A stretch of DNA of 64,000 nucleotides from Botryllus schlosseri (taxonomy: Eukaryota). The stretch spans positions 38,504,001-38,568,000 of the forward strand of contig CM119372.1 of the NCBI GenBank assembly GCA_051294905.1, read 5' to 3'. Below, in pieces: positions 8,945 through 64,000 of this stretch (positions within the stretch are counted from its first letter, which is position 1; each line of letters starts with the position of its first letter). A model generated the notes under the pieces. It worked only from the letters and a program-made list of their open reading frames with translations, searched no databases and was not told the DNA's origin. The position numbers and the translations under genes were made by a program.

Positions 8945-9913
8945 TAGGGATGGTGTGAACGTGAGGTTCACGTACGTTTTCTGTGTGTGAACCTCGGAAA
9001 TTTAGAGGTTCACGTTTTCAAACAAACCTTATTAGGTTCTGCACTGTGAATTTTTTTCATATATTACAATTTTCACGTCAATATAACATCTTTGTTTGAA
9101 ATTTATTGCATTTGAACTGCGGGTCACTCTATGCATGGCGCTGGCAGCATAAAAATTCAACAGTAACCGAGCATGCACCTGGACAATCTGAAAATTTTTA
9201 CCTGCTCTGTTACAAAAGTTTGCTCGAAATATCCAGCTTTCTATTTATGAATATTTAGTGACTCTATGCTGTAAGCTTGACCCGAAATCACACAACATCA
9301 AGAGCGAAATACACAACAAGTAGGTAGTCTGCGAATGATGCTCATTCAACCAATCGATGAAATTGATATCGTTATCTGATGTAAAATTTCTAGCCAGCGT
9401 ACGGGACCCGTCTCGATTTCATATATTTATTGTATCATAAATACCAAATCCGTTCGATTGGGGTGTTGGCTACTGGTGTATAACTTGTAAATGGGGTATT
9501 ATCGTTTTACACTCTGCTCAATATCAGCGTATCAATACTCAGACGCAGAATACATTTTCCGGTCTGGCCTAGACCGTTAGGGCGTAAGCTTATATTCATT
9601 TGCAAGTCCTCATCGAAATTGGTGGCAAAGCGACGGAAGATATTGATTTTATGGGATTATTATATCATATGATTGCTCCAGTTGATACATTTGGCGACGT
9701 TTGAAAATTGAGTATGTTCTTCAGCATCGAGGCTTTATGTGGCCCGAGTCGTCGCTAGGTATCGTGTACATTATTATACCTTACTTCATTGATCTGTATG
9801 GTTTGAATTAGCAATATGACGTCACGAGGTTCACGTTCGTGATCACACAGAACCTTTCAAAACGGTTCGCGTTCACTCGAACCAGAACCTTTCAGAGGTT
9901 CACACCCTCCCTA
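8945..9913. mobile_element. hAT MITE, TAGGGATGGTGTGAAC family
   Basis: TIRs TAGGGATGGTGTGAAC / GTTCACACCCTCCCTA. Inverted homologue of 39916-40906. TSD only approximate (GAAAAT on both sides). Confidence 0.85.
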
Positions 9914-25113: not shown

Positions 25114-25728
25114 TAGGGCTGTTCAAAAATATCTTTTTTTCCCGGATTCCAGCCATTCACTGATTAAATTGTCAGGTTACCCTAAAAAACGCTGCACACC
25201 AAATTCGGTTCAATTCTAACAAGTATAGAACTCCGCAGATCCAATTAAAATTTTTAATTTATCATGAAAAATTAAAAAAAAAATTTCAAATTTTTCTGCC
25301 AACCCCATGAAATTGTTGAGCTGTCTTCAAAGACGTTGCAAAATAAATTTGAGTCAATTCCGACCAGTAGAAGCGGAGTTATGTGAGTTTTTCGATGATT
25401 ATCCTCGGATTATCCTTGATTGGTGGATAATCCGCAATTTATCAACGAAAAACTCACATAACTCCGCTTCTACTGGTCGGAATTGACTCAAATTTGTTTT
25501 GCAACGTCTTTGAAGACAGCTCAACAATTTCATGGGGTTGGCAGAAAAATTTGGAATTTTTTTTTTTTAATTTTACATAATAAATTAAAAATTTTAATTG
25601 GATCTGCGGAGTCCTATACTTGTTAGAATTGAACCAAATTTGGTGTGCAGCGTTTTTTAGGGTAACCTGACAATTTAATCAGTGAATGGCTGGAATCCGG
25701 GAAAAAAAGTTATTTTTGAACAGCCCTA
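25114..25728. mobile_element. Fully palindromic hAT MITE, 615 bp
   Basis: TAGGGCTGTTCAAAAAT ... ATTTTTGAACAGCCCTA, with ~300-bp near-perfect arms. Perfect TSD CTGTATGT. Confidence 0.95.
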
Positions 25729-28057: not shown

Positions 28058-30488
28058 GTGAGTGAGACGATGAATGTGTTTATATCTGTTTCCTTTCCGA
28101 ATCTACAAAATGCCTCTTTTAAAGAACAGCACATCCACATCATTACACAAATAAACACTTTCTTAAAATGCTCAACTGTCCCTTTAAATTACCATAAGGA
28201 TGATTGTGCCTGCTCGGAATCCTTTGTTTGCTAAAACCGCTGTGACAGTGCCAATTCGCCTACTTGCACTGTCAGCATTTAACGAAGTTTGTTTAAACTT
28301 ATCCGTGGTTTTATTATATTACCTGTCCGAAACAAGTTTTAGACCTCTTATACACAGTTTCGTACAACACTTGCACCAGTTTGACGTACGCTCAAATTAG
28401 ACCATGAACTCTCTATTACGAAAACATGCAGAATTATACTATTCAATGGTCTAAAGAAATTTAAATGTGACCTTTCTTTTCTCCAATTATTGAACAAATC
28501 GTCCAACTCATTGCATTTTAGAGTTGAGATTTACAATCTTCACATTTTTGGCGGACTGACAGGTAGCTTGTCACGGACCGACAGCCCGACACCGGTCCGC
28601 TAACCGGCGCGGTTAAAAACCTCTTGTTCAAGCGAACGGTTGCTGCACCCTGTCATACAGCGTAAAATCGTATCGCATTGCCACTTCCTATGTTTGATAA
28701 TAATTTATGAAATTTCGTACCATATTTTCACATAGTTATTTTGGAAACAGTATTTGTTGTTTTTTCTTTTTGATCTATGGGGAAAAAATCCGTAAGTGGG
28801 TAGTAGGCTATTACTTGACTTTATATGCGAACTACGCGATTTGCCGTTTGAAAACGATGAAGTATGTTTTTATTACATTAGCGGTCTACTCATTAGCTAC
28901 TATCTCATCTGATGTAGTATTCGGTGATGTGACAGGAAAAAATTGATATATAACAATATTTCCATTCATATTGCGTTCTTACAATGGTCGTTTTCGGGAG
29001 GTATTAGTTTATATTACTGATCTAGACGGCTTGCTTTGCAGGCAAATGTATTAGTATAATGTCATAACGTTCAGAATATCATGACTAGGATAAAAACAAT
29101 CGAAGAGAGTAGGCTACCTATCTCATCTCGGCCTATTTGAAAAGTCACAAGTCACATCCACTTCTTAAATAACCGCCGTAAAAGTGTAGAGATACATCAG
29201 GAAATCGAACTCTTCAACTTGCAATGGGTCTATATATGAAGGCGTGACTTGATATTTTAGCCGAAGACAAGAAACATGAGGTATATGTGTACCACGGATT
29301 TGCGGGATGTAACCGTGATTGCCGCAAAGAATTTTCAAAGGATTTACTCTGGGTAAGATGTTGGCCGCCACGTTATCACGTTTTTTCTGATACAATGTGT
29401 CCTGTCCAAGGCAGGATTGCCCTCGCGTTTCGTATTGATTGAAAAATTACATTCGGATTCGCAAATAATGGATATTTTCAATATTTTCAAAGCAAGTGTG
29501 GCGCTTATCGCCAGAAACGACTCTATGCAGCTATGCGCCTATTTTCTGCTCTCCAGTCTCATCTTATACGTTCGTTCGTCTTCATCGTTGCGTTGCTACC
29601 TAATTCAAGCTTGGTTTGTTCTGTTAATTTTGAAGACACTACATGCGCAGCAGAGTTGGATCAATTACAATATTTTAATTCAATTACAATTACAATTACA
29701 ATTACTGTTAAACATGTAATTAATTACAATTACAATTATAATTACAATTATTTTTAAACAGGTAATTGATTCAGTAAAGAGGTGTTCTTTGACAACCGTA
29801 GCGACGTAATTAGCAACAATCTCAAGCTATTCAGTTTCATTCCTAGTATGTAGAATACCCTTTAATTAAAAAAAAGCTCGAACGTATTCGAACTATTCCT
29901 AATCATGAGTACTGAAAACTACAAGCACAGAAAAATGTTTCTAGCGACTGTTAAGAACCAAAGGTTTGAGCGACTAATAGCGAATAGGCTATAGGACAGT
30001 CAATGAAATGTAACCAAACGATTAGGCTACTCAAAGCTAAGTCGGGATAATGAAATGTAGCCTAATTGGTAAAGCGTCAGCGATAAGGATGATACCGATA
30101 AGGTGTGTAAAACAAAAATAAATGCAAAAGGGAAGAATCTCCTGATTACTAAGAATTATAATATTTTTGTTCGCATTTACATTTTCACTTGCTCGGAAAC
30201 TGTTAGATTGAATTTGATGAACATTAGGGTGCGAAAAGTTTCTGGCCCCAGTAAATATGGCCAAGATCGGAGGTAAGATTGGGATAAAATCTCTACAAAT
30301 GCGCAATCAAGTTTGATGAAGCCTTGGTTGGAAACTTGAATTTTTTTGCTATTGTTGCAACAAGCCTTGGTACTGGTCAGAGATTTAAGAAAAACTTTGA
30401 CCGTGGTGTAGGAAATGGTTCAGCACAGGTTTCAGAAGAGTTTATTTGCTGTTCATCCATTTTTGAAATATTAAGATTTAGTTTGGCC

Positions 30489-32137
30489 CACTGGTTCTCC
30501 AACTTTTTTAGACTAGCTCCCCTTTACGACAGTGAATATTTCGTGCCTCCCTTATCGGCATTTGACTGTGTCAATCATTCCAAACTAGTTGCTAAACTTG
30601 AATTCTATGGTATACGTGGACTTGCAAAAATGTATTTCGAATCTAACTTAAATAATAGGAAGCAATTTGTTCATATTGGAACAACGCGTTCACAATTACT
30701 GCCCATTCAGACTGGTGTACCTCAGGGATCAGTTCTCGGGCCCCTGCTGTTCATAATTTACATCAATGATATTGGTCATTTATTTGACGATGACATCACG
30801 CTGTTTGCTGATGACACCAGTCTAGTTATACCCGGTACAAATTTATCTGATGCATTTCACAACATTAACACTAAGCTATCGACAGTTTCAAAATGGATGG
30901 CATCTAACCAACTTCAGCTCAATGCCTCCAAGACCAAAACTATTGTTTCATACAAAAGTGAATCGAAGTGAAATTATAGTAAATAACGCACATCTTGATA
31001 CACATAAAACTGTTAAATATCTTGGCATTATCATTGATGATAAACTCAGATGGTCTAATCATATCAACAATATAAAAACTAAAATCTCGCGTGGTGTCGG
31101 GGCTCTCTATCGCCTTAAAAATTTAATTCCTCATCAGACTCTCAGATCAGTCTACTATGCCTTAATTCACTGCTATCTCACTTATGGGATCCTAGTTTGG
31201 GGATCTGCTGCAAAAAACGTCTGCAGAAATTGCAAGTATTGCAAAACCGAGCCATACGAATTCTCTGTCGGAAATCTAGATATGAAAATTATAATAGCAT
31301 GTATCGAAGCGTTGGAATATTGAAAGTGGAAGACATTTTCAAATTTGAGGTTATGAAATTTATGCATAGCTATCATCGGGTGAACTGCCACTATATTTTG
31401 ATAATCTGTTCAAGATACCTTCAGATACCCACCAACATCATATCAGATTTTATTCTAACTTGTCTCTGTCTGTACAACACCACTCTACCAGTCTAGTACA
31501 AAATTCGATCAGTTTTATTGGTGTCAATGTTTGGAACAAGCTGCCACCTATTCTCCGCAATTTAGACTCTTGTGCATTTAAAAAAACAATGTTTTCATTC
31601 CCTTATCTCTAACTACGGCTAAATTGTATTTGCATTGTATTTCGAATTAGTCCATGATACTGTGTCTTAATTTTCTTTTCGTTCGTTGGTTAATTTTTGT
31701 TTTTGTTTTGTTTATTAGTTATCAACTGTGAAAATTGCTCCTGTCCTGGGTGGCTCAGCTCTTAAGACTTTGTCATATCGAGCCTCCCGTCTACCCTACA
31801 TGTCGCATTTCACTGTTACATTTTGGTAGTGTAATGTTGATATGTAATGTATACGAATAAAGGTTCTCTCTCTCTCTCTCTCTCTCTCTCTTGTCATAGC
31901 GCACAATGAAACCAAAAAGTTAGCTATCCTTACATATAGTTCGATGGTAATGAAGGTTATGACTGTTGATGAGAGAATTCTCCAATACGAAATACAGATT
32001 ATACACCGTGAAATAACCATAAAACGGAGGTGAATCGGGTCAAGCGCGGAAAAGATTTCAGCTCACCGGAGCGTCGCGCCCCGTTCAGATGCTTTCACGC
32101 CACCCAAGCGGGCACGCCCCCAGTTTGAGAACCACTG
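30489..32137. mobile_element. Charlie-type MITE interrupted by a LINE
   Basis: CACTGGTTCTCCAACT ... AGTTTGAGAACCACTG. TSD GTTTGGCC / GTTTAGCC. The two halves match 12879-13182. Confidence 0.85.
30557..31890 (+). mobile_element. 5'-truncated non-LTR retrotransposon (CR1/L2 group) with frameshifted reverse transcriptase
   Basis: AFDCVNH...GVPQGSVLGPLLFIIYIND...LFADDT, then KYLGIIIDDKLRWSNHI...YGILVWG and LQVLQNRAIR in shifted frames. 3' end AATAAA followed by a (CT)n tail. Confidence 0.95.
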
Positions 32138-39915: not shown

Positions 39916-40906
39916 TAGGGATTGTGTGAACCTCTGAAAGGTTCGGGTTCGTGTGAACGCGAACCTTTTTGAAAGGTTCTGTGTGAACACGAACGTGAAC
40001 CTCGTGACGTCACATTGCTAATTCCAACCCTATCTTTCAATGAAGTGATAGCCTATATTAATGTACATTGCACACGATACCTAGCGAAGACTCGGGCCAC
40101 ATAATGTCACATTGCTGAAGTACATATTGGCGTTTTAAACGTCGCTAAATGTATCAACCGCGGTTATCAAAGGATGTAATAATCTCATAAAATCAATACA
40201 TTCCGTCGCTTTGCCAACAATTTCGACGAGGACTTACCAGGGAATATAAGCTTACGCCTCAACGGTCTTAGCCAGACCGGACAATGTGTTCGGAGTCTGA
40301 GTATTGCTACATATATATATTGAGCAGAGTGTAAAACGGGTTTCTATACTCGCTACCGATACCATAAACAACAAGTTATATAGCAGTAGCCAGCACCTTA
40401 ATCGCACGGATTTGGTTTTAATGATACAGTAAAGATATGAAGTCAAGATTGACCACGTACGACCGCTCGATTTTTTACATCTGAAAACGATATCAATGTC
40501 ATTGATTGATTGAATAAGCATTATTCGTTGACTACGTGTATCGCTCGTGATGTTGTGTGATTGCGGGTCAAGCGCACATCAGAGAGTCACTAAATATTCA
40601 CAAACGGAAAGCTGGATATTTCGAGAAATTTTTTGCAACAAAAAAGCAAGTAAAACTTTCAAGGTTGTCAAGGTGCATGCTCGTTTAGCGTTGATTTTTT
40701 ATGCTGCCAGCGCCATGCATAGAGTGACCCGCAGTAGAAATGCAATAAATTTGAACCAAAGATCTTATAATGAAGTGCAAATTACAATTTATTAAAAAAG
40801 TTCACAGTGCAGAACCTACCAAGGTTCTGTTGTGAACGCGAACCTCAAAATTTCCGAGGTTCACACACAGAACGCGAACGTGAACCTCACGTTCACACCA
40901 TCCCTA
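39916..40906. mobile_element. hAT MITE, TAGGGATGGTGTGAAC family, 991 bp
   Basis: TIRs TAGGGATTGTGTGAAC / GTTCACACCATCCCTA. Perfect TSD GGTTCAGG. Confidence 0.95.
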
Positions 40907-47964: not shown

Positions 47965-49648
47965 CAGTAAAGCATTGCACTGGTGCCGTTTAAGATTTCA
48001 TTTGGATGTAATTTTGTCGTAAAAATAAGCTTTTCATTATTAAAATCGTAGACACGTCTCATTGCACGCGTACGAAGCAATATCTGTTTTAGTTCCCTTT
48101 CAGTCAGGGACCTTTGTAATAAAACATTTCGGTGAATCATCAATTTCAGTATATCCGATGAACACAGAAAACTGAAGCAAGTGGACAGAATGAAAGATAG
48201 ACATCAGTTGAGTGCCTGCTATTCAATACTTTACCTGTTAATTATAGAGCTATTTGTTTAGTAGCTATTTAATCAGAAATAAACTGTCAGCAGATTAAAT
48301 TCATTCCTTGTTGAGCGAGGATTGTAAAGAATGCATGAAATGCTCTATTACACTCTATTATAATTGGCGAATTATTTGCATTTGACGTTTATATAGCCTC
48401 CTGTTAAATACTTCCTTGATTGCGTAACGTGAAACCCACCCCGCTGGAAATAATTTGGTATGGAATTCTGAGGCAATTTAAGCCTGCCCAGGTCGCATTT
48501 ATTATTATTTTCCTGGAGCTAATGTCCTATATCAAATATTGAAAATAAGGATACCCAGCTATCCTCATAATTTTCTTCCATAAAACATACAGCTTGCTGA
48601 ATAAAACTAAAATACAGTTCGAGATCGAGGTAGGCCTATGCAGTAAGGCATGAGTAATTCCTAGATGTCATTCAAAACACGATAACTATGGAATATACTG
48701 AATAATGAACGATGAGCCATATGTCCGAGAGAAAGATTTATTTTCATGCAATAGAAATACAAGACAAACAGACGGCAACAATGATGATACAAAAAAGCAT
48801 GCATGCACAGTATTCGGTATCAGATACAAATCTACACGATCTTGGATGTCACTTCACCTGGTCTGATCATACCCGCATCAAGCAGGTACAGCAGATGTTT
48901 TATCTCCTGTACTAATCAAGCTGGCTGTCCGACGTTTGAGCATGCGAAATAATGTAAAACGACAGTTGAGCATGGGGTTATTTAGCTTAGCGACAAGTGT
49001 CAGCGACCTTTTGCTAGCTTCACATTTTTAATTGTATTTCCATGAACGTCATATGATCTTTTTCGAGACCCAAGACAATTAGGATTTAGATCAGTGGTTC
49101 TCAATCTGGGGAGCGCCCCTTTGGGGGGCGTGAGAAATTGACAAAGTCTGTATAAATTGGGACTAAAGGTGTGTTTCACAACCAATTTGATAAGAAGATT
49201 GTTGAAGATAAACTTATTTCGTATTCAAATAAACTTGCCAAATACAAACTCCAGCAGTCACGCTCAACGGAGTATATAGGCTGATTTCAACTTCATTTGA
49301 GTAAATTCTTGATATTCCCACGTGTAAGTCATTCATTACTTCATAGCTTTGGCAGTAGCCTAAAGCTCGGTGCGCTGGGTATAGCTGTTGTTAATAGCTG
49401 GCGAACTGCAATGCCTAAGACAGACTTAGATGCAATATAGATTACCCGGTTTTGCCCTCAATAGGGCTACCCTAAATCAACAAAATTTAATTCAATTCCA
49501 AAACTGATCAAATTTAGCATGCCAGAATAGTCTTTCTGTACCAGCATTAGGATTATAGTCTCAGTGCAACCTACCTTGAAATATATTGATGTCCTGTTTT
49601 TTATTATTTTCAAACGAATTTTGTCAACAAATGTAAAAGACTGCACAT

Positions 49649-50267
49649 TAGGGCTGTTCAAAAATAACTTTTTTTCCTGAATCTTGCTGGTTACTTGATT
49701 AAATCGTTAGGTTGCCTTAAAAAACGACGCATACCAAATTTGAATTCATTCCGACAAATATTCGCGGGTTACGTAGAGTTTGAAAATTTTGGATTTGCCC
49801 AAAAACGCAAAAAAAAATTTTTCTCAAATTTTTTTGCCAACCCCATGAAATTGTTGGGCTGTCTTCAAAAACAATGCAAAACAAATTTGACTCAATTCCA
49901 AGCCGTAGAAGCGGAGTTATTCCAGTTTTTCGGTGATAGTTCATGGATTATCCACCAATCAAGGATAATCCCCGAATTTTCGAATAAAAACTGAAATAAC
50001 TCCGGTTCTACAGCTAGGAATTGAGTCAAATTTGTTTTGCATAGGTTTTGAAGACAGCCCAACAATTTCATGGGGTTGGCAAAAAAATTTGAGAAAAAAT
50101 TTTTTTTGCGTTTTTGGGCAAATCCAAAATTTTCAAACTCTACGTAACCCGCGAATATTTGTCGGAATGAATTCAGATTTGGTATGCGTCGTTTTTTAAG
50201 GCAACCTAACGATTTAATCAAGTAACCAGCAAGATTCAGGAAAAAAAGTTATTTTTGAACAGCCCTA
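49649..50267. mobile_element. Fully palindromic hAT MITE, 619 bp, same family as 25114-25728
   Basis: TAGGGCTGTTCAAAAATAAC ... GTTATTTTTGAACAGCCCTA. Perfect TSD CTGCACAT. Mirror ORFs 49695(+) and 49892(-). Confidence 0.95.
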
Positions 50268-51272
50268 CTGCACATCTTGAATGAAGTTTTAAACTTGGCG
50301 TAAGATATAGGCCTATCATATGTATAGACACTATTAGATGATGTCCGGCAAGATTTTTTTCAATTTTGGCCGTAGTCGGAATAGTACTTTTTTTATCCGG
50401 CTATAGTCTTTATTGATAAGCATGACTTATGTAACTAAATACCTACCGACCAACCAACCCCACGCAAGTAACCGCCAAGCCAGTGCGAAAATATACCAGA
50501 CATATTTATAAATTCACGGAACCACCGTACCGTGTAGGGCGGAGCATGGACCAGAGCCGGATTGGATATCCGGCCGAACTTTTTCATTTTTAGCCAGAGC
50601 CGGATAAGTAATTTTTCTGATACGGCCGGAGCCGGATCGGAGACGAACCTGACAATTGAACAACAGGATCGGAGTCAAACGAGACCGGAGAACTTGTCGA
50701 TACGATCCGCACTAGTGTAAGCAAGAGACGTAGCTTGAAGTCAGCAATGAACTGGAAGATGAAATGAAGATGAAATGAAATCAGTGAAACAAAGTCCTTT
50801 TAAAATGACATGAAACGTCGTCTTTTTCATCGGAATTAAAATAGCCATCATCAATCTATTGGTGGCAAATCCCACAAAAGATAAAACTCTGAAGACGATA
50901 GGAATAGCCTACTATTGTATTCCAAGGCATCGAAATGTTGTGGAAAAGCAGTGGTGTATTCCGTTCTGTTGTATGTTAATCCAGCTGACATCTTGCTGCA
51001 AAATGTATATCACAGTGTCACTAACCTTGAAGGATTTCAGGCATTGCTGACAGCGTGGAGGAGGTCATTGATCATATTCATCTCGATATAAGTAGTGAGA
51101 CTGATAAACCTGTATCTGTACTACAAATGAACATGTAAAATATAAACTAAGGATTTATAGTTATCCAACCACTGTAGAAATACTAGAAAACGCAGAGTCG
51201 AATAAATCAATTGGAATTTCGTATTATCTCGAATAAATGATATAAATGATCTACGTCTGCTCTCTTTCATTA

Positions 51273-51318
51273 ATGACGCATATGCATTCTGTACTATGAC
51301 GCATATGCATTCTGTACT
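51273..51318 (+). repeat. Perfect 23-bp tandem duplication
   Basis: ATGACGCATATGCATTCTGTACT twice. Confidence 0.9.
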
Positions 51319-52393
51319 TTGATATCAGTTCCTCTTTTATCTTCACTAAAATCGCAATCAAATCATAGACCATCTCTGCCACATCTCTGTCTTGTATACC
51401 TAGCTCCGTTTCAGCATTTTCCTCCTACTAGTTCAGGGGTTCTCAACCTTTGTTTAGCTGTGGCCCATTTTCCGGTTCGAAAATGTTCTGTGGCTCACGT
51501 CTTGTCCTAGAATGATATTCTTGTTCGATGCGTGGTAATCTCCAGCGCTGATATGTGGCATTTTTCTCTTACTGACCATATTTAAATGCAGACCTCTAGG
51601 CACATCAAATCGCGCAACGTGAGACGAAAATTTTCAAATTGAATAAATCTTCTTCAACAAACGATCAGCGACATAATTTTGGGCCCCTTCAAGCTCCCAA
51701 TTGTGGATTTTGGGTGCGGCAATACGGCCTGGTAGATCGTATAACCCGTGTGTGCAATATTTCGCCAGATAAAAATGAAAGAATTTGTATCAATACTAAC
51801 GCGAAGCGCATTTACCATTTTTCGGTGTTGGTTGTGTTCCTGATTTCTTTGAAGGTATGCGTTCCACAATAATTCCAGTATACCGAACTGGGATGCGTTT
51901 AGCATACATTATACAAATTGTTCATGTTTTAGTAATGACTTTCAGTGGGTTCATAAATGACGCTAATTATTTTTCGAGGATTCAAATAAACAATTTTAAT
52001 CAATACTACAAATGAACAACAATACGAAACACATTTAGCAAATTTCAGTGTAGAGCATAATCCAATTTCTTTGTGTATTATCCAAGTCTAGCTGAACAGA
52101 ATACATCTAACAAGCATATCCCAATTTGCTTTCGTGATGATCAAAGTTTTATAGTGTAAATCTACAGATCTCGCGATATTTTAAATTTAACGCATTCCAT
52201 AGAGAGTGTGAACGGATCAAATATTAATTAACCAGCGGTGTGTGAAATCGCCCGCTTCGAATCGGGGTCGAGAACTGATGAACACAGTGTGAAATGTTGA
52301 CACACTGTTATGTGTGCATGTGTTTCCAACAATAAAGCATTAGTAGTTATATAGATCGCTCGCGAATCGCCATTGTGGCTTATGGGCGGGGTG

Positions 52394-52609
52394 GTGACTC
52401 GTATTGAAAACCCGGGGTGGTGACTCGTACTTTCAGACCCCCCTTGTGGTGGTGACTCGTAATGGGTTCTTATGGGTGCGGCCGTGATTCGTACTTTCGG
52501 GTATAGGCTGCGGCGGTGACTCGTATTGAAAACTCGGGGTCGTGACTCGTACTTTCAGGTATAGGCTGCGGCGGTGAATCGTAATGAGAACTCGTGGTCG
52601 TGATTCGCA
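52394..52609. repeat. Subterminal array of 8 GTGACTCGTA-like motifs (mirrored at 61375-61590)
   Basis: Starts at 52394, 52420, 52452, 52484, 52516, 52542, 52574, 52600; spacing 26 or 32 bp. Confidence 0.9.
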
Positions 52610-55600
52610 CTTTCAGGCATCTCTCGCACGGCGTTGAATATGTATCAAGTAAATAGTCATGTGAATGAACCTTTGTTAATGTGTATATCGTAAATTATTA
52701 TATATGATGTAGTTTAGTCGTGACAAATGACCGATCGTGTTCTAAGTCTTTCCTCGCTATTGATCGCTAGCTGAATAGTACTTTCAGATCGGGTTATTCG
52801 CACCTTGTATACCGCTGTTTGCACCTACAGAATAGTCTGCTGTTCACAGTCGTGACTTCACCGCGATAGCGCGATTTTCGAATCAGTCGCATGGTAATGT
52901 TTTGCTATTTAGTTTACCACAGAGCGGTGAAGACGACGATTCGAATACCAACAATAGCCGCGTTCACATACTAACACTCCCAAAAGGTGTGAAATATTTC
53001 CTACGACCACTCACAAGATAGCACATCAGAATAGTCATCTCTCGTGGTTTGATGTTACAAAGATAGGAATCACACACAAGTAATATTTTGGTAATAAGTT
53101 TGTCGCATAACCGGCGTAGACGGTGATACCAACAATAGCCGCGTTCACAAACCAACACTTCAAAAACGTGTGAAATAGGTTACAAATCCCACGATCGCTC
53201 GCAAGATAACACCAAAGACATTACCATTTCTCGCGTCTTGTCATTACATACATCCCAATCGCTACAGTGTAATGTGTCGATGGTTGTTACTATCAAGTAA
53301 TAAGTAATGAATAACAGTACCAGCGCAGACCGTGATTCGAAAACCAACAATTTGACACTTGCCCGCGATCGGTATATGTTTCACACCTCCCGAATAGCGG
53401 CTGACTTTAGTTGCGTGATAAGATCCATGAAAATATTCAATCAATGTGTTAGTTTGTCAACTTGAAATGTAACTCACTACACAAATCAAGTTGAATCGTA
53501 TTTGAATGTATTGACGCGACCCAACTCAAATCCTTTGACAAGTCCTATTAACGCAATCTGTTGAATCGAACGTAACCTGAATATTACTGATGCCAACATT
53601 CACCCACATCGGATCATTCACACATTCCACGCCGCTGTTTTAACAGTTATAGAATCAATACCAACTATCTCTAATCCGATAATATTCAATCATTTTGGTA
53701 ATTTACCAACTTTAAATCCATTCGCGGATGTACTAAAGGTAAATCCAGATAATCCAAAATGAAATATTTGGACTTTGACATAGTCTGAATTGAAATAGAT
53801 TGACAAACATGACTACCAACTTTGATCCAGTCACATTTCAAGATCATACTTTGAAACAATCCTTGAAACTTACAACTCTATTCACGACTGAGTTTTCCGT
53901 TTATCAGTTTCAGTAAATACTATCGCGATATTTTAATGTGTTACTACACACAATAGAATCACTCAATGAAATAACACCTGTTGTAAATATTTCTAACTTG
54001 ACAACCACTTGTGCATACCGCGATCGACTTGTGACGCGATGAGTTAAATCGGGATATTTCAATCTATTTGTCGAAACCTTGAACAAACTATCAGGTTATT
54101 TTTTGTTGTAATCGAGTGAACGGAAATAGTATTACGTCTCAACATTTTAACATCTTCCCATACACAAAAGAGTAAAATACAAAAAAACCTTGTCAAGTCA
54201 ATCCGTTTGTAACTTACCCAACCAAAGCAAAAAGTATCCTTATGAAAAGTAGACAAGACTACGTGAGTAATCACCACAATCCAAAATCCATAGCAAGTTC
54301 GGTTGCATTCATAGTTCACCAACTCGTATTTTTATTCCACTGTAAAAGTCGTTACTATTCCGCAAGACAAAGAAATTACTATGTGGTATATTTTGTAAGA
54401 CAAAAGTAATTACTTCTCAGTGTCGGCGACTTGAGATTAACATAATATGTTTGAGTATACGAGATTTGACAGTCTGACCATCGTAGTTGAGAATTCATTT
54501 CTTACAATCGAACACAGGTGTTATATCAAAAGTTATCATACTGTAAACATAAGGATTGACACATTGATTTGACGTATGTAATAGTTGATCACGACTTGAT
54601 TATTAAATTATTCGCGTTAATTAGACCCGCGTTGTGTTGAAAGTTATGACAGTAACAAACTTTTCGGAAACGTTGTTATTAACATATTGATTTGTAAAAC
54701 TATACTTGTCTGAAATGTTCTTGATTTGGAAGATATTCCGTGTTGGTACAAATCACTCTGCGTATTGCGGATATCAGAAAATATTTTACAAATGTAATTG
54801 TTTCCAGTACCCAAGACTAAAGATGAAACAACAATTTCGTTTGCTGATTAACAACCGGTACAATACTTTATCATCATAATCCGCGGTGAGAATTGAAACA
54901 CTTTCGCGCATTACCCGGTGTCAAGATATCACACTAGGTGAATTGACATACAGCCGCTTGAATAATACCTAATCCGTTCGCACCATTTCACATACTTTGA
55001 TCATTACAAAAGTAAATTGTGATATGTTTGTTAGATGCATCCAATTCAGTTAGAAATGTCTGGTGCACAACAATCGTAATATCAAAAAAGTACTTGCTAC
55101 ACTGTTATTTGCTAAACGTGTTTTGCATTGTTGTTCATTTGTAGTATTGATTGAAATTGTTCTTGAATCCTCAAATAATAATTCCTGACATGAAACCAAG
55201 CCGCTGAAAGTCGTTACCATCACGAAGATACAATGTGTACGATTTTTGTCAAATGTGTCCTACCTGGCCAACAGAAAACAATTTTCACTCACTCGAAATG
55301 AAACCAATGTGATGGTCTCCATTCGATATTTTGTTTGTGTCAAATACTTTGCAATGAACACATTCGCGCGGTTGAGCTTTACATCATCAAGCTGTTATTT
55401 GTAAATCAAGATTTCGGTAAACTTGTAAATGTATCGTTTAACTAACCGACATTTAGTGATTGGGGAACATACCAGACGATACACATCCATCTCCGAAATA
55501 CTGCATTGATCTTAATTTCCATCATCGTGATAATCGAAGTACATTTCTTTCGAATTCGTAACAACCGACTATGACATGATAAATTTTTGACAAGTTATGC

Positions 55601-56499
55601 TTAGAAGATTGGTGCATCTCACGAAAAAATAATATACCACTCATATTGATACTGTTACTCCATTGATCGGTATTTTCAAACGAGTCGATTTTCAAACGAG
55701 TAAACTTTATTACTTGAGTTTCTCCGCTTAATGTAAATGTAAACTCAGCCGTCTTTTAACATCACAAAGACATTGATAAAAAGTATGGTATGACATTGTT
55801 ATCGGGTGTGATGACATTCGATCTGCATCAAAACTACCGGCTATGATAATGTCTGTGGATCGATGTTTGTATACCAACACATTGCATGCAATGTCACACA
55901 CCTCCATTTACGCGTATACTGGTGTGGGCAAACAAGCGCGACGTATGTCTGGATGGTATTTTTTCGTGGAAACACAGGGTGTAACATGTTTACTTTGAAT
56001 ATTGTTCATTGGTTTATCGATTGAGAGTTGATATCCGGATCCGGTTACATACTTTATCAGGGTTTCCGATTTCAAACTGAATGTCGAGACATACATGACC
56101 AATAAAGACACAATATAGTAAACACACGGGGGAAAACTCGACCTGGAATTGTTATCGCGATGGGTGACATAAATCCAACCGTTTTCCGAACACCGTTATC
56201 CACATATCAACCATCGTCAAAGAGGTGTTTTATTCAGACATTTTGACTCTGGAAAATCCAAAGCACGAGCCCGGACATCACAGAACTATCGAAGCCTATT
56301 GTCCAATTTTCCAAAAACATAAACGTCGATGTACAACAGCACATTGCATGTGGGTAACCGATGATTTTGATGGGTTGCATCAGCACAAGTGAATATGCGA
56401 TTACACAAATGTATTGGAGTTGTTGTTGGTGTATATTTTGTCGCTATCCGTTGTAACAATATACAAAATTATCAAATTGTCAGGTGTGTTTGTCAGATT

Positions 56500-57115
56500 T
56501 CAAAATGAAAATGGTTTTGTTACTCTAGGAAAAGCTAGATGACCAAGAGAAAATGTATTGTTACACTGGGTAAACGCCAGATCCCCCAAAGGAAAATGAT
56601 ATTTTTACTCAGGTAAACGACGGACCACCAAGTGAAAAAGGTTTGTAACCCAGGGAAAAATATATTTCCAAGCAAAAAAGGTTTGTTACCCGGGGAAAAA
56701 ATATATTTCCAAGTGAAAAAGGTTTGTTACCCAGGGAAAAAATAGATTTCCAAGTGAAAAAGGTTTCTTACTCTGGGAAAAAATAGATTTCCAAGTGAAA
56801 ATGATATGTTTAACCAGGTAAACGACGGACTGCCAAGTGAAAACGGTATTGGTACTCAGGTAAATGATAGTTTTCCAAACGAAAAGGGTTTGCTACCCAC
56901 GGAGAAAATATATTTTCAAAAGAAAATGATTAGTTACTCTAGGTAAAAGTATTTTTCCAAGTGAAAATAGTTTTTTGCTGTAGGAAAAAAAAAATAGATT
57001 TGTAAACGACAAGGGTTTGTTACTCTAGGAAAGGATAGATCGCCAAGTGAAAATGATAATTTTACACAGGTAAACGTCAGTTGTCCAAACCAGTATGATA
57101 TTTTTGACTTGGGTA
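56500..57115. repeat. 41/42-bp minisatellite in the spacer of the foldback element
   Basis: Unit approximately TTCCAAGTGAAAAAGGTTTGTTACCCAGGGAAAAAATAGAT. CCAAGTG at 56709, 56750, 56791, 56833; roughly 14 units, decaying outward. Confidence 0.9.
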
Positions 57116-60100
57116 GGTATCTTGTGTTCAACGCTGGTAGTGTGATTGGTCTTGTTAAACGTAGTTGCCGAGTTGTACAATATACTTTTCGTGCGTGTAC
57201 AATTACGAAGGGGTGGCAAATGAAATTGCTATTATGATCGTCAGAAGATTGTTGTTGTTTGTTGATTTGATTTGTCGGAGTAGCAAACCTATCATTCGCA
57301 TATGACAAGCAAAATCATTACCGCGAATACATGTAACTGGCTCGCTCGGTCTCGACCAATGCAAAATAGATGATTCGTTTTTTGAAACCGTAGCGAAGAC
57401 CACATGTAAATCGATGCGATAGACTTCTATCCCCTTACATTCAGTCGTGTCGTGTCCGTTTTAATATTTCTTGACTACATCGGAATGTCTATGTTGTAGA
57501 AAGTAAATACTTTTATGGAGTTGTGTGTTTAATGAAAGCGATTGGTTACAAGTATGTGTTGGGGAAAGAAAATTTTTTTTCTGTATGTGACAGTTTGTGA
57601 CGAAATGAAAATAGATTCGTGGTTTTAATTGAATTGTGACTGTGTTGTTTTAATGCGCTTTTCAACAGGTAGACTTGACACTGAACAACAATTCGACTCA
57701 CAAAAAATGTTTGTTGTATGATTTGTCACTGGTGTGCAAAGGGTTAGGAATATTTTTGATTTATTGTTATGGCATTGATAGAACCATCCGGAAGTGAGTA
57801 TGCTTTTCTTTCACGAAAGTTTACGTGGGTCCGTTGTAATAAATTTGTGTTAACTAAACTCGGATGGATACCGCAATTGTGCTGGACTTACACATGGTAT
57901 TCGCATACTGTACACATACAAACTTTTGTGTAAACAACTCTCTGATGTTTCTGTTAGTACTAGTTCTGTGTTGAACTATTTGATTATTAAGATACATGAA
58001 CACCCATTCAGACAATAAAGGTCTTGTGATATCGAAACAGTTTGAAAGCGCCACCAATCATTGTACAGGTTCGTAGCATGGGAATATCGATTATTTTCGT
58101 GTACCATGAATATATTTCATATACCTTTGGTAAGAAATGAGTTGCGTGGGGTAATCATACACAACCTACAAAAGTTAAACTTGTAGCGTTTGATTGCCTA
58201 CTTTTTATCAATGTCTTTGTGATGTTAAAAGACGGCTGAGTTTACATTTACATTAAGCGGAGAAACTCAAGTAATAAAGTTTACTCGTTTGAAAATCGAC
58301 TCGTTTGAAAATACCGATCAATGGAGTAACAGTATCAATATGAGTGGTATATTATTTTTTCGTGAGATGCACCAATCTTCTAAGCATAACTTGTCAAAAA
58401 TTTATCATGTCATAGTCGGTTGTTACGAATTCGAAAGAAATGTACTTCGATTATCACGATGATGGAAATTAAGATCAATGCAGTATTTCGGAGATGGATG
58501 TGTATCGTCTGGTATGTTCCCCAATCACTAAATGTCGGTTAGTTAAACGATACATTTACAAGTTTACCGAAATCTTGATTTACAAATAACAGCTTGATGA
58601 TGTAAAGCTCAACCGCGCGAATGTGTTCATTGCAAAGTATTTGACACAAACAAAATATCGAATGGAGACCATCACATTGGTTTCATTTCGAGTGAGTGAA
58701 AATTGTTTTCTGTTGGCCAGGTAGGACACATTTGACAAAAATCGTACACATTGTATCTTCGTGATGGTAACGACTTTCAGCGGCTTGGTTTCATGTCAGG
58801 AATTATTATTTGAGGATTCAAGAACAATTTCAATCAATACTACAAATGAACAACAATGCAAAACACGTTTAGCAAATAACAGTGTAGCAAGTACTTTTTT
58901 GATATTACGATTGTTGTGCACCAGACATTTCTAACTGAATTGGATGCATCTAACAAACATATCACAATTTACTTTTGTAATGATCAAAGTATGTGAAATG
59001 GTGCGAACGGATTAGGTATTATTCAAGCGGCTGTATGTCAATTCACCTAGTGTGATATCTTGACACCGGGTAATGCGCGAAAGTGTTTCAATTCTCACCG
59101 CGGATTATGATGATAAAGTATTGTACCGGTTGTTAATCAGCAAACGAAATTGTTGTTTCATCTTTAGTCTTGGGTACTGGAAACAATTACATTTGTAAAA
59201 TATTTTCTGATATCCGCAATACGCAGAGTGATTTGTACCAACACGGAATATCTTCCAAATCAAGAACATTTCAGACAAGTATAGTTTTACAAATCAATAT
59301 GTTAATAACAACGTTTCCGAAAAGTTTGTTACTGTCATAACTTTCAACACAACGCGGGTCTAATTAACGCGAATAATTTAATAATCAAGTCGTGATCAAC
59401 TATTACATACGTCAAATCAATGTGTCAATCCTTATGTTTACAGTATGATAACTTTTGATATAACACCTGTGTTCGATTGTAAGAAATGAATTCTCAACTA
59501 CGATGGTCAGACTGTCAAATCTCGTATACTCAAACATATTATGTTAATCTCAAGTCGCCGACACTGAGAAGTAATTACTTTTGTCTTACAAAATATACCA
59601 CATAGTAATTTCTTTGTCTTGCGGAATAGTAACGACTTTTACAGTGGAATAAAAATACGAGTTGGTGAACTATGAATGCAACCGAACTTGCTATGGATTT
59701 TGGATTGTGGTGATTACTCACGTAGTCTTGTCTACTTTTCATAAGGATACTTTTTGCTTTGGTTGGGTAAGTTACAAACGGATTGACTTGACAAGGTTTT
59801 TTTGTATTTTACTCTTTTGTGTATGGGAAGATGTTAAAATGTTGAGACGTAATACTATTTCCGTTCACTCGATTACAACAAAAAATAACCTGATAGTTTG
59901 TTCAAGGTTTCGACAAATAGATTGAAATATCCCGATTTAACTCATCGCGTCACAAGTCGATCGCGGTATGCACAAGTGGTTGTCAAGTTAGAAATATTTA
60001 CAACAGGTGTTATTTCATTGAGTGATTCTATTGTGTGTAGTAACACATTAAAATATCGCGATAGTATTTACTGAAACTGATAAACGGAAAACTCAGTCGT

Positions 60101-62544
60101 GAATAGAGTTGTAAGTTTCAAGGATTGTTTCAAAGTATGATCTTGAAATGTGACTGGATCAAAGTTGGTAGTCATGTTTGTCAATCTATTTCAATTCAGA
60201 CTATGTCAAAGTCCAAATATTTCATTTTGGATTATCTGGATTTACCTTTAGTACATCCGCGAATGGATTTAAAGTTGGTAAATTACCAAAATGATTGAAT
60301 ATTATCGGATTAGAGATAGTTGGTATTGATTCTATAACTGTTAAAACAGCGGCGTGGAATGTGTGAATGATCCGATGTGGGTGAATGTTGGCATCAGTAA
60401 TATTCAGGTTACGTTCGATTCAACAGATTGCGTTAATAGGACTTGTCAAAGGATTTGAGTTGGGTCGCGTCAATACATTCAAATACGATTCAACTTGATT
60501 TGTGTAGTGAGTTACATTTCAAGTTGACAAACTAACACATTGATTGAATATTTTCATGGATCTTATCACGCAACTAAAGTCAGCCGCTATTCGGGAGGTG
60601 TGAAACATATACCGATCGCGGGCAAGTGTCAAATTGTTGGTTTTCGAATCACGGTCTGCGCTGGTACTGTTATTCATTACTTATTACTTGATAGTAACAA
60701 CCATCGACACATTACACTGTAGCGATTGGGATGTATGTAATGACAAGACGCGAGAAATGGTAATGTCTTTGGTGTTATCTTGCGAGCGATCGTGGGATTT
60801 GTAACCTATTTCACACGTTTTTGAAGTGTTGGTTTGTGAACGCGGCTATTGTTGGTATCACCGTCTACGCCGGTTATGCGACAAACTTATTACCAAAATA
60901 TTACTTGTGTGTGATTCCTATCTTTGTAACATCAAACCACGAGAGATGACTATTCTGATGTGCTATCTTGTGAGTGGTCGTAGGAAATATTTCACACCTT
61001 TTGGGAGTGTTAGTATGTGAACGCGGCTATTGTTGGTATTCGAATCGTCGTCTTCACCGCTCTGTGGTAAACTAAATAGCAAAACATTACCATGCGACTG
61101 ATTCGAAAATCGCGCTATCGCGGTGAAGTCACGACTGTGAACAGCAGACTATTCTGTAGGTGCAAACAGCGGTATACAAGGTGCGAATAACCCGATCTGA
61201 AAGTACTATTCAGCTAGCGATCAATAGCGAGGAAAGACTTAGAACACGATCGGTCATTTGTCACGACTAAACTACATCATATATAATAATTTACGATATA
61301 CACATTAACAAAGGTTCATTCACATGACTATTTACTTGATACATATTCAACGCCGTGCGAGAGATGCCTGAAAGTGCGAATCACGACCACGAGTTCTCAT
61401 TACGATTCACCGCCGCAGCCTATACCTGAAAGTACGAGTCACGACCCCGAGTTTTCAATACGAGTCACCGCCGCAGCCTATACCCGAAAGTACGAATCAC
61501 GGCCGCACCCATAAGAACCCATTACGAGTCACCACCACAAGGGGGGTCTGAAAGTACGAGTCACCACCCCGGGTTTTCAATACGAGTCACCACCCCGCCC
61601 ATAAGCCACAATGGCGATTCGCGAGCGATCTATATAACTACTAGCATTATACCGGTAGTTGAATGTATCAGTAACGAAATTGTTATTACATCTTTAGCCT
61701 TGATTATTTCAAACGATTGATTTGTACCATATTAGTTGGTGAGTACATAATACCATTCTGTAATATATTGATGCGATCGTGACTAATGGATTACTTTCCA
61801 ATCAAGAACATTTCGGATATGTTAATTTAGTTTTACAAATCGATGTGCTAATAACGATGTTTCAGAAAAGTTTGTTGGTATCATAATACCGTTTACCACA
61901 ACACAGGTTCCAATTAACACAACTAATTTTCAATCGAGTACTTACCAGACAGTTGATTCTTGAGTTGTGAACCAATGTGTTAATAAGTGTGAACGTAAAG
62001 AATTTACTCACGTCGGGCTGTCTTACTATAACATCCAAGAATTCGCTTAGAAAAAATCTATTCTCGGGCATTCTTCATATACATCCAAATCTCGTATACT
62101 GAATGATAATCTCAAGTCATATTCATCCAGTAAGAATAATTATGTCTTACAGAATACCAACGACTTTTACAGTTAAATAAAAAAGACATATCATCGGAAT
62201 TTGAATACAAAAAGGATTGATCAATCTAGTTTGCAAGTCGGAGTTTGTTTTAATTCAATATAATCCAACATAGTAGTAAGAAACTCTATTCGTATTCGTG
62301 GATCTGGAATAATACTACATTGATGTCAAAGTGATAAATTACCATATCGGGATACGGTTCAGCTTTGGTTATACCGCGAGTCGCGAAAAGGAAGAATCTC
62401 GCAAAAGATTTGGGTTAGAACATATGACACTTTTCTCACAGTCTGTATATTACCAAGTCAAGCCGATGGTTGTTCCGTGATGTCTTAATTACTTATTGTG
62501 TACTACAATCTCCAAGACTGAGTGCGGTTTCTGTGATATCGATA

Positions 62545-62915
62545 TTTCTTTGTTTGAAGAGCTTCTTAGAGGTAAAGAACTTCAATATACAATTGAACAG
62601 TATATTCATATTGAAATGAATCCAAATATGTTCGGCTGACACTCGTCAGGAGTAATCGTCAGCAACTATATAGTAGAGAATTAGAAAGAACATTGTATAT
62701 CAACAATCGCATCACAAAATATGACACCACCAGCATGAAATTTCAAATGAGAGAGCGTTGATTGTGCTATTTTTGGGTGGTACACGAACTCCTTTTGTTG
62801 ACAAAGTTTTGGTTGCTGTATTTCGTAAAAGTCGACTCCAATGCACACAGATGGAAGTGTGAACGGCCCCCTCCCAACGACCAAAATCTGTCGACTCGAA
62901 GATTATTCCCACAAA
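62545..62915 (-). mobile_element. Penelope-like 3' fragment (end of GIY-YIG ORF plus pseudo-LTR)
   Basis: GGGRSHFHLCALESTFTK and QPKLCQQKEFVY match the element at 4040-4700. Degenerate hammerhead CTGACGA...GAAC at ~62621-62652. Confidence 0.8.
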
Positions 62916-63320
62916 TCGGATGCTCATAAATCGAGTGAGAGTTAACAGGAATACGTGATGAGCAGTGCTGTAGGATGGAGTGGTTTCCAGAGGCAACCAG
63001 ACAAAACAAATCGGCCAAGGAAATCCGAAATTACATTTGTTCAGTTGCGCGTAGACGTACATTAGGCTGTTGACTGCGGAAATGAGATCAGAGAAGCATA
63101 ATCCTGTTGTGATGACAGTAAAAAATCCCGACTTCATGCGTAACTAAGTAATAATCATGAGGATATTTGCGACTGACCCGACTATAGTCAAGAAAGCGAA
63201 TGCTGCCCATATTATTGACTCTTCCGTCGCGGTACGATTGGTAACATGTTCGTATTTCGAAAAATTAATCGGTGCCGCTGATAACTGGTCATAACAACCA
63301 TTGAAATTGAAATGATCCAT
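62915..63320 (-). pseudogene. Rhodopsin-like (class A) GPCR pseudogene, N-terminus to TM3
   Basis: ATG at 63320: MDHFNFNG...NFS...NRT (glycosylation sequons); TM1 IIWAAFAFLTIVGSVANILMII; in-frame TAG at 63144-63146; TM2 GLCFSDLISAV; ECL1 FPWPIC; TM3 ending LLTLTRFMSIRF (DRY equivalent); then truncated by the Penelope fragment. Confidence 0.85.
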
Positions 63321-63463
63321 CTCGTTGAACTCTATATCTATATTAATCTATTTACAGACCTAGACAAATTGAAAGAAAAAGAAACAAAATAGTGCATTAA
63401 CTACATTTTCCATATGTTTCATTTACAGCGATGCAGTAAGGGTTGCATTCAAAACAAAGAGTA

Positions 63464-63655
63464 CATTTCGTGCTGGTGACGTCATATTTTGTGTAACGAT
63501 TGTTGATATACGATGTTCTTTTGAATTCTCTTCTAGTTGCTGACGATTATCCCAGACGAGTTTCAGCCGAAAATATTCGGGTTCATTTCAATATGAATGT
63601 ACTATTCAATTATATATTGAAGTTCTGTACCTCCAAGAACCTGTTCAAAACAAAC
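63464..63655 (+). mobile_element. Penelope pseudo-LTR fragment, inverted relative to 62545-62745
   Basis: Reverse-complement alignment over ~190 bp. Degenerate hammerhead CAGACGA-GTTTCAGCC-GAAA-ATAT-TC-GGGT at ~63549-63582. Confidence 0.8.
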
Positions 63656-64000
63656 GGTGTTTTAAAACACCCTGTTCAAAACATGTTTCAAACAAATGCC
63701 TTTAAAAAAATTGTGTTTATTTAAGTTGTAAAATTATCCCATAATTGTGTAAATACTTTCCATTAAACATGCAACCCGATATAGCCGACGTATATCGATA
63801 TGGGATGGTTGGAACCCTGAAAATAAAATAGTCGGTTCAAAAGCAATACTTTCGAGGCATATATTTCGTCGAAGGAGATATATTTACCTTATATTTTCAA
63901 TTCTCAATGTCAAACCACTATGAAGTCGCAATTGAATATTCATGACGTCGTGGCTTTTCTCAACGCGAGTCGGAATCGAGTCGTTACAACCCTGTATTTG

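What the first reader, a model, noticed from the sequence alone, without database searches (positions are those of the whole stretch)
51930..62185. The foldback element is inserted into a diverged copy of its own arm sequence
Seen: removing the element and one TSD gives ...AATAAAGCATT^ATACCGGTAGTTGAATGTATCAGTAACGAAATTGTTATTACATCTTTAGCCTTG. This aligns across the junction with the uninterrupted arm sequence GATAAAGTATTGTACCGGTTGTTAATCAGCAAACGAAATTGTTGTTTCATCTTTAGTCTTG (~59112-59172, mirrored at ~54812-54872). Homology runs ~400 bp leftward and ~540 bp rightward of the insertion site, clearly diverged and with indels. Inference: one of (a) chance nesting in an abundant old relative, (b) a targeting preference for self-related 'safe-haven' sequence, or (c) arm growth by past capture of target DNA. 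If (b) holds, it would be an unusual homology- or family-directed integration behaviour.
Basis: partly seen in the sequence, partly recalled or inferred. Interest (0 to 1): 0.8.

Follow-up and report, generated by a model that had tools for sequence, protein, structure and literature searches.

The report
Transposon nested in an older relative
A young 9.3-kb mirror-image jumping element sits inside a decayed 1-kb piece of DNA related to its own arms, likely because such relatives are common in this genome rather than because it aims at them, so this is probably ordinary nesting.

Summary
The element (52342-61642) has 3,444-bp identical inverted arms, AGTAGT..ACTACT ends and a 6-bp duplication (AGCATT). 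It interrupts about 1 kb of DNA that is colinear with arm positions 58719-59655, at 74-77% ungapped identity. An assembled contig from a public run carries the empty site with one AGCATT, so the insertion is likely recent and not fixed.

Targeting is not supported. Identity does not peak at the site, the matching arm position lies 2.5 kb inside the end, and 2 of 2 listed paralog contigs reaching the site lack an insertion. Arm sequence is very abundant; a rough estimate expects 0.1-20 chance nestings per genome. The flank belongs to a separate, older, low-copy lineage. The genome was not available, so the enrichment test could not be run and a family-level bias stays open (about 15%).

The scan noted same-family nesting before on other DNA of this genome (e1-7803153, e1-7786339; unchecked). 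Self-insertion bias is published for MITEs and LTR elements. Verdict: a real, probably ordinary nested insertion.

The parts
52342..61642 (.). Young gene-less foldback element, 9,301 bp, with Maverick/Polinton-type ends (5'-AGTAGT ... ACTACT-3')
   Evidence: no Pfam hit in 12 of 12 read-through frames of arm and loop; no Rfam hit
52342..55785 (+). Left arm, 3,444 bp, identical to the right arm; 58-bp subterminal repeats at 52483-52617
55786..58198 (.). Loop between the arms, 2,413 bp, with a 41-bp tandem array at 56628-57053
58199..61642 (-). Right arm, 3,444 bp
52336..52341 (+). Left copy of the 6-bp target-site duplication AGCATT
   Evidence: one copy only in the empty-allele contig
61643..61648 (+). 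Right copy of the 6-bp target-site duplication AGCATT
51886..52341 (+). Left part of the older arm-related remnant (matches 58719-59122; strong to 52161, weak and gapped after)
61649..62185 (+). Right part of the older arm-related remnant (matches 59123-59655)
62186..62523 (+). Continuation of the remnant's own low-copy lineage; no detectable match to the element
   Evidence: paralog contigs at about 84% in runs X2 and X6; local score 43 against a shuffle maximum of 53
58719..59655 (+). Arm segment homologous to the flanks, uninterrupted; the site-equivalent hexamer AGTATT (59117-59122) lies 2,520 bp from the terminus
54329..55265 (-). Mirror copy of that segment in the left arm
   Evidence: read depth as high as in the rest of the arm

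Best explanation
A gene-less foldback element with Maverick-type ends lies in a 1-kb decayed relative of its own arm, likely inserted recently by a borrowed Maverick integrase at a site likely chosen without regard to the homology. Shown: the structure, the 6-bp duplication, the colinear homology and an empty allele. Inferred: the helper integrase acting in trans with a 6-bp staggered cut, the recent date, and that the overlap reflects abundance and perhaps regional clustering of a long-lived family whose older lineages left fragments behind.
For: (1) A clean 6-bp duplication with (AGT)2//(ACT)2 ends is the footprint described for Mavericks (PMC8097293, passages), not that of recombination. 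(2) Empty allele: a 568-bp X2 contig matches 51984-52342 with letters 1-359 and 61643-61858 with letters 353-568, which leaves one AGCATT; I identify it as the same contig by equal length and depth. (3) Identity centred on the site is 0.85, 0.67 and 0.50 for 20, 30 and 50 columns, reached or exceeded by 14%, 44% and 74% of all windows; the best window and the longest exact match (26 bp) lie about 320-340 bp away. (4) Arm depth in X2 averages 338,000 over 16 bins, against 80-98 for five single-locus contigs. Across 8 assumed settings this gives 0.1-20 expected chance nestings, P(at least one) 0.10-1.00. (5) The flank has closer relatives (84-88%, up to 5-7 contigs per run at some positions) than the element. 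(6) 2 of 2 listed paralog contigs that reach the site run past it without the element's end. (7) No sequence-specific integration was found for the related EMALE virophages (PMC8547959, passage).
Against: No genome was held, so flanks of other copies were not examined and enrichment is untested. The chance estimate rests on summed contig depth, which the tool says is no copy number, on an assumed overlap factor (2-20) and an assumed genome size (300-575 Mb); at the low end the chance of even one case is only 10-19%. It counts relatives of 85% identity or more, whereas this target is about 75%, a pool I could not size. The other 53.7 kb of the window hold 0 further arm-like remnants, so the target is not dense locally. 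Two other scan notes report same-family nesting (unchecked), which is also what a bias would give. No listed contig bridges a filled junction, and no helper Maverick was seen here.
Confidence: 0.67

Rival explanations
1. The integration complex is biased towards DNA of its own family without base pairing, for example through a helper or host protein that binds arm motifs or through the chromatin state of these repeats, so relatives act as preferred landing sites.
For: The site lies in the only arm-related kilobase of the 54.7 kb outside the element. Scan notes e1-7786339 and e1-7803153 report further same-family nestings (not checked). Precedents: self-insertion of the rice MITE families Castaway and Gaijin (PMC5172404, passage), LTR 'autoinsertions' (PMC6911290, passages), and Ngaro elements that prefer EMALEs, 91% for type 1 (PMC8547959, passage).
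Against: One case, picked because it looked striking. Chance expectation is of order one or more under mid-range assumptions. 2 of 2 listed paralog contigs are empty at this position. EMALEs showed no sequence-specific integration.
Confidence: 0.15
2. The arm segment is a module that the family took up long ago from a different repeat or from host DNA. The flank is another copy of that donor and not an old foldback element, and the new insertion met it by chance.
For: Homology stops at 58719 and 59655, while the flank's lineage goes on to about 62523 with sequence absent from the element. No further Maverick-type end with this element's terminal letters lies near the remnant in the window. Long inverted repeats can grow by recruiting other sequence, as in Galileo (PMC3573991, passages).
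Against: Capture from this site is not possible as worded: the arm carries the position uninterrupted and is about 25% diverged, while the insertion is not fixed. The segment is a standard part of the young arms (mean depth 408,000 in 5 bins against 306,000 in the other 11). Truncation by neighbouring repeats explains the missing ends equally well (high depth at 51288-51878 and from 62553).
Confidence: 0.14
3. Integration is guided by base pairing between the arm (as DNA or RNA) and the target, or occurs by homologous recombination.
For: The 20 columns centred on the site are 85% identical to the arm, and the 55 aligned positions from the duplication rightwards are 85.5% identical.
Against: 14% of all 20-column windows do as well; wider windows are average or worse; an 18-column gap starts about 11 letters left of the site. 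The homologous position is 2,520 bp inside the terminus, so a crossover would not give two intact ends and a 6-bp duplication. No Rfam family in 50500-64000.
Confidence: 0.03
4. The arrangement is an assembly artefact caused by the long inverted repeat.
For: Arms are 100% identical. No listed contig bridges a filled junction (32 of 110,776 and 32 of 83,582 pieces were shown).
Against: The duplication is exact and sits at the exact element ends. In X1 one contig ends at 52342 and the next begins 30 letters before 61650, the pattern of a branch between two alleles at this site (word length 31 as the tool states). The flank is 25% diverged, so it is not a collapsed arm.
Confidence: 0.01

Closest known systems
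Maverick/Polinton elements (vertebrate set of PMC8097293, passages read; lizard Polinton of PMC3014272, passages read)
   Same: Terminal inverted repeats, 5'-(AGT)2//(ACT)2-3' ends, 6-bp target-site duplication.
   Different: No polymerase, integrase, ATPase, protease or capsid gene detected; 9.3 kb against 12.7-24.6 kb; arms of 3,444 bp against 46-1,447 bp; very high copy number, whereas vertebrate Mavericks are mostly low-copy.
Self-inserting families: rice MITEs Castaway and Gaijin (PMC5172404, passages, citing Jiang and Wessler 2001, not read) and plant LTR 'autoinsertions' (PMC6911290, passages)
   Same: A copy sits in an older member or relative of its own family; shared genomic niches and expansion waves are offered there as explanations.
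   Different: Those claims rest on hundreds to thousands of elements; here there is one case and no enrichment test. Different element classes.
EMALE virophages and their Ngaro retrotransposons (PMC8547959, passages)
   Same: Related integrase-using elements with short duplications; 18 of 29 EMALE sites lie near repeats.
   Different: EMALEs showed no sequence-specific integration; the demonstrated preference there is of another element (Ngaro) for EMALEs, not of an element for its own kin.
Galileo two-TIR foldback copies of Drosophila (PMC3573991, passages)
   Same: Gene-less copies made mostly of long, internally repetitive inverted arms; coexisting subfamilies (77% identity between the ends in one comparison); arms that grow by recruiting sequence.
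   Different: P-element superfamily, 7-bp duplication, arms up to about 1.26 kb, different ends.

Membership tests
Maverick/Polinton (autonomous) | Terminal inverted repeats | tested here: met
   3,444-bp perfect arms; longer than the 46-1,447 bp of PMC8097293
Maverick/Polinton (autonomous) | 5'-(AGT)2//(ACT)2-3' or (AG)3//(CT)3 end motif | tested here: met
   AGTAGT at 52342, ACTACT ending at 61642; motif
Maverick/Polinton (autonomous) | 6-bp target-site duplication | tested here: met
   AGCATT on both sides, single in the empty allele
Maverick/Polinton (autonomous) | Protein-primed polymerase B, integrase, ATPase, protease and capsid genes | tested here: not met
   No stop-to-stop frame over 126 aa in the element; 0 Pfam families in 12 of 12 read-through frames at E 0.05. 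Heavily frameshifted relics could be missed. Not filed as a member.
Non-autonomous Maverick derivative | An autonomous helper with the same ends in the same genome | not testable with these tools
   No genome held; asserted only in unchecked scan notes
Family-targeting (self-inserting) transposon | Insertions into own family enriched over the genome fraction | not testable with these tools
   Flanks of other copies not retrievable: no genome, no listed loose-end row at the termini, 0 viral and 5 chance metagenome pattern hits
Family-targeting (self-inserting) transposon | Insertion points clustered at one position of the target family | tested here: inconclusive
   2 of 2 listed paralog contigs reaching the site are uninterrupted; too few, and the tables are cut
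Homology-guided integration | High local identity between element and target at the insertion point | tested here: not met
   Site-centred identity matched or beaten by 14-74% of windows; gap next to the site

The most novel reading that the evidence does not exclude
Giant gene-less foldback satellites of Mavericks in this animal preferentially integrate into older members of their own family, because the borrowed integration complex is tethered to arm-derived DNA. This would be a kin-directed safe-haven strategy not found for Mavericks in my searches.
Probability: 0.15. Interest if true: 0.7.

Novelty: new member of a known kind. Interest (0 to 1): 0.24.

Why it matters
If ordinary, the case still helps in two small ways. 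It shows that this foldback family is likely still moving (an empty allele segregates), and that it has older lineages about 25% diverged, so the family is long-lived. If a family-directed bias were real, it would be a target-choice rule for Maverick-type integrases, for which my searches of open papers listed none (listings and passages only). It would be directly testable on the many copies in this genome.

Tried and rejected
Whole-genome flank survey: not possible, no genome is held for this window.

Terminal 18-mer scans: 0 matches in viral contigs. The 5 of 5 metagenome matches share only 18-24 letters around the pattern with the window and are treated as chance.

Loose ends at the termini: I laid 5 of the 24 listed runs (X1, X2, X5, X6; X1, X2, X6, X12). 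No loose-end or joint row at 52342 or 61642 was among the 24 loose ends and 15 joints shown per call; 3,592 and 1,525 loose ends were not shown. So nothing can be said about other copies' flanks. No RNA holder was listed.

Coding or RNA remnants: Pfam on 20 selected frames gave only the window's reverse transcriptase above a curated cut-off; 0 of 18 read-through frames hit; Rfam 0.

Extension of homology: 62186-62552, 51434-51885 and 50800-51433 do not beat shuffles against the element.

AGYATT as a special motif: it occurs 6 times in the arm and 2 times in the remnant; nothing marks it as a target motif.

Scan look-ups by sequence, by relatives and by words returned nothing. The organism was not identified; a protein search with the neighbouring GPCR-like frame found no hit.

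Paper searches listed no report of Maverick self-targeting or of giant foldback Maverick derivatives; the library lacks most subscription journals, and I read passages of 8 papers, no supplements.

Full report
The element. Self-comparison of the window shows one perfect inverted repeat of about 3.4 kb. Its limits are 52342-55785 and 58199-61642, 3,444 bp without a mismatch, around a 2,413-bp loop. The element starts AGTAGT and ends ACTACT, and of duplication lengths 3-11 bp only 6 bp matches, AGCATT. The (AGT)2//(ACT)2 ends and 6-bp duplication are those given for vertebrate Mavericks, whose intact copies are 12.7-24.6 kb with arms of 46-1,447 bp (PMC8097293, passages). No Maverick gene is detectable: no frame exceeds 126 aa, 12 of 12 read-through frames of arm and loop have no Pfam hit, and Rfam finds nothing. 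It works like a non-autonomous Maverick derivative, but it fails the gene test for membership, and a helper was not seen here.

The observation. I aligned each flank on its own. The left flank 51891-52161 matches arm 58724-58999 at 78.6% without gaps (score 237, best of 60 shuffles 46). The right flank 61643-62183 matches 59117-59655 at 73.8% (score 272, best of 30 shuffles 52). The last 180 bp of the left flank align weakly and with long gaps, but above chance (0 of 500 global shuffles, 0 of 200 local shuffles). Both flanks meet on the arm hexamer 59117-59122. Over the whole 451 + 541 bp, identity is 77% and 74% without gaps, and 58% and 61% with gap columns counted. nhmmer finds no other arm-like stretch in the remaining 53.7 kb.

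The empty site is real. Public runs hold the stretch (20 of 24 rows). In run X2 a contig of 568 letters and depth 89.4 matches 51984-52342 with its letters 1-359, and a contig of the same length and depth matches 61643-61858 with letters 353-568. The overlap is the duplication plus one shared letter, so the contig has a single AGCATT. In X1, from the same sample, one contig ends at 52342 and another has 61643 at its letter 24, which is what a branch between two alleles at this site would give. No listed contig bridges a filled junction, so the filled allele rests on the window and the X1 branch. Identical arms, an exact duplication and an empty allele together indicate a recent, unfixed insertion.

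What the target is. Summed contig depth over the left arm in X2 averages 338,000, against 80-98 for five single-locus contigs; the part homologous to the flank is no lower than the rest (408,000 in 5 bins, 306,000 in 11). The segment is thus a normal part of a very abundant arm. The flank's depth has spikes, several of them where it resembles the arm most, and troughs of 139-377 at 61906-62115. Its nearest relatives are contigs of 84-88% identity: 5-7 per run at 61727-61784 in X2 and X6, and 1-3 further right, continuing to about 62523. The stretch 62186-62552 has no match in the element. So the target is one of a few copies of an older lineage that shares about 1 kb with the young arm. It is bounded by other high-depth repeats at 51288-51878 and from 62553. 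Whether that lineage was itself a foldback with Maverick ends is not shown.

Tests of targeting. Homologous recombination does not fit: the matching arm position is 2,520 bp inside the terminus, and both ends are intact with a 6-bp duplication. Base-pair guidance predicts an identity peak at the site. Centred identity is 0.85, 0.67 and 0.50 in windows of 20, 30 and 50 columns, equalled or beaten by 14%, 44% and 74% of windows, and the longest exact match (26 bp) lies at 51998. A positional hotspot predicts that paralogs are hit at the same place. The two listed X2 paralog contigs that reach it (314 and 429 letters, both 88%) run on for 75 and 220 letters that do not lay on the element's end, although that end was in the stretch. 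This is 2 of 2, from tables that showed 32 of 83,582 pieces, so it is weak.

Chance expectation. Taking depth as a rough guide, with an overlap factor of 2-20 and a genome of 300-575 Mb (both assumed), there are about 95-950 elements, and this arm covers 0.1-2.2% of the genome. The expected number of chance nestings is 0.1-20. The tool warns that depth is no copy number, and the figure leaves out relatives under 85% identity, the class to which this target belongs. The estimate shows only that one case is unremarkable under mid-range values; at the lowest values it has a 10-19% chance. A scan note places another such palindrome 27 kb beyond the window (e1-7884688, unchecked), which would suggest regional clustering. 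Another note judged a triple nesting to match local crowding (e1-7803153, unchecked); I use that idea but did not test it.

Mechanism, step by step. Shown: structure, duplication, colinear homology, empty allele, paralogs. Inferred from what is known of Mavericks (retroviral-type integrase, PMC6431247 and PMC12220804, passages): an integrase supplied in trans recognised the ends and made a 6-bp staggered cut. Inferred from the tests above: the site was taken with little regard to sequence, in a repeat-rich region that held a fragment of an older relative. I give this 0.67, a family-level bias 0.15, an anciently shared module met by chance 0.14, base-pair guidance 0.03 and artefact 0.01.

Comparison with what is known. 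[quoted passage not shown] For the related EMALE virophages no sequence-specific integration was found, whereas Ngaro elements do prefer EMALEs (PMC8547959, passages). Galileo shows gene-less long-armed copies and arm growth by recruitment (PMC3573991, passages). Six searches listed nothing on Maverick self-targeting; Kapitonov and Jurka 2006 and Jiang and Wessler 2001 are cited only through other papers. No supplements were read.

Verdict. The nesting is a new instance of a known phenomenon, and the exciting reading has no positive support here beyond this single selected case. The element family is more unusual than the nesting, but it is the subject of other notes. Interest 0.24; the genome-wide flank test would settle it.

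Noticed in passing
window 62549-63654: An 85% inverted repeat (62549-62741 / 63465-63654) of a very high-copy element (about 400 contigs per run with unrelated flanks at 62553 in X1, X2 and X6) encloses a minus-strand frame 63347-62712 with one stop that looks like the start of a 7-transmembrane receptor. ESM Atlas look-alikes include GPCR clusters at 0.90-0.92; Pfam and a homolog search gave nothing. Depth stays high to 62800, so the receptor-like piece may be transposon cargo.
   Followed up: partly
window 8945-9913 and 39916-40906: Two 1-kb stretches, 81% identical, in inverted orientation 30 kb apart with matching outer ends; related pieces at 1953-2830.
   Followed up: no
window 14517-17019: An older foldback of 2.5 kb with 86% arms and internal 41- to 66-bp repeats; its ends are not of the AGT type.
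   Followed up: no
window 25114-25728 and 49646-50270: Two palindromic elements of about 620 bp (93-94% self-complementary), 75-76% identical to each other.
   Followed up: no
window 55785: Contigs of X1, X2 and X6 leave the sequence exactly at the arm-loop border with a shared different continuation, so other family members likely carry a different loop or longer arm from this point.
   Followed up: no
window 50894-51287 and 61649-62523: Run X6 has no depth at 50894-51287 and, among listed rows, only 84-91% relatives over the right flank; the locus itself may be absent or much diverged in that sample. Contigs show presence, not absence.
   Followed up: no
window 30288-31496: Frameshifted reverse-transcriptase remnant (Pfam RVT_1, E 4.9e-17).
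   Followed up: no
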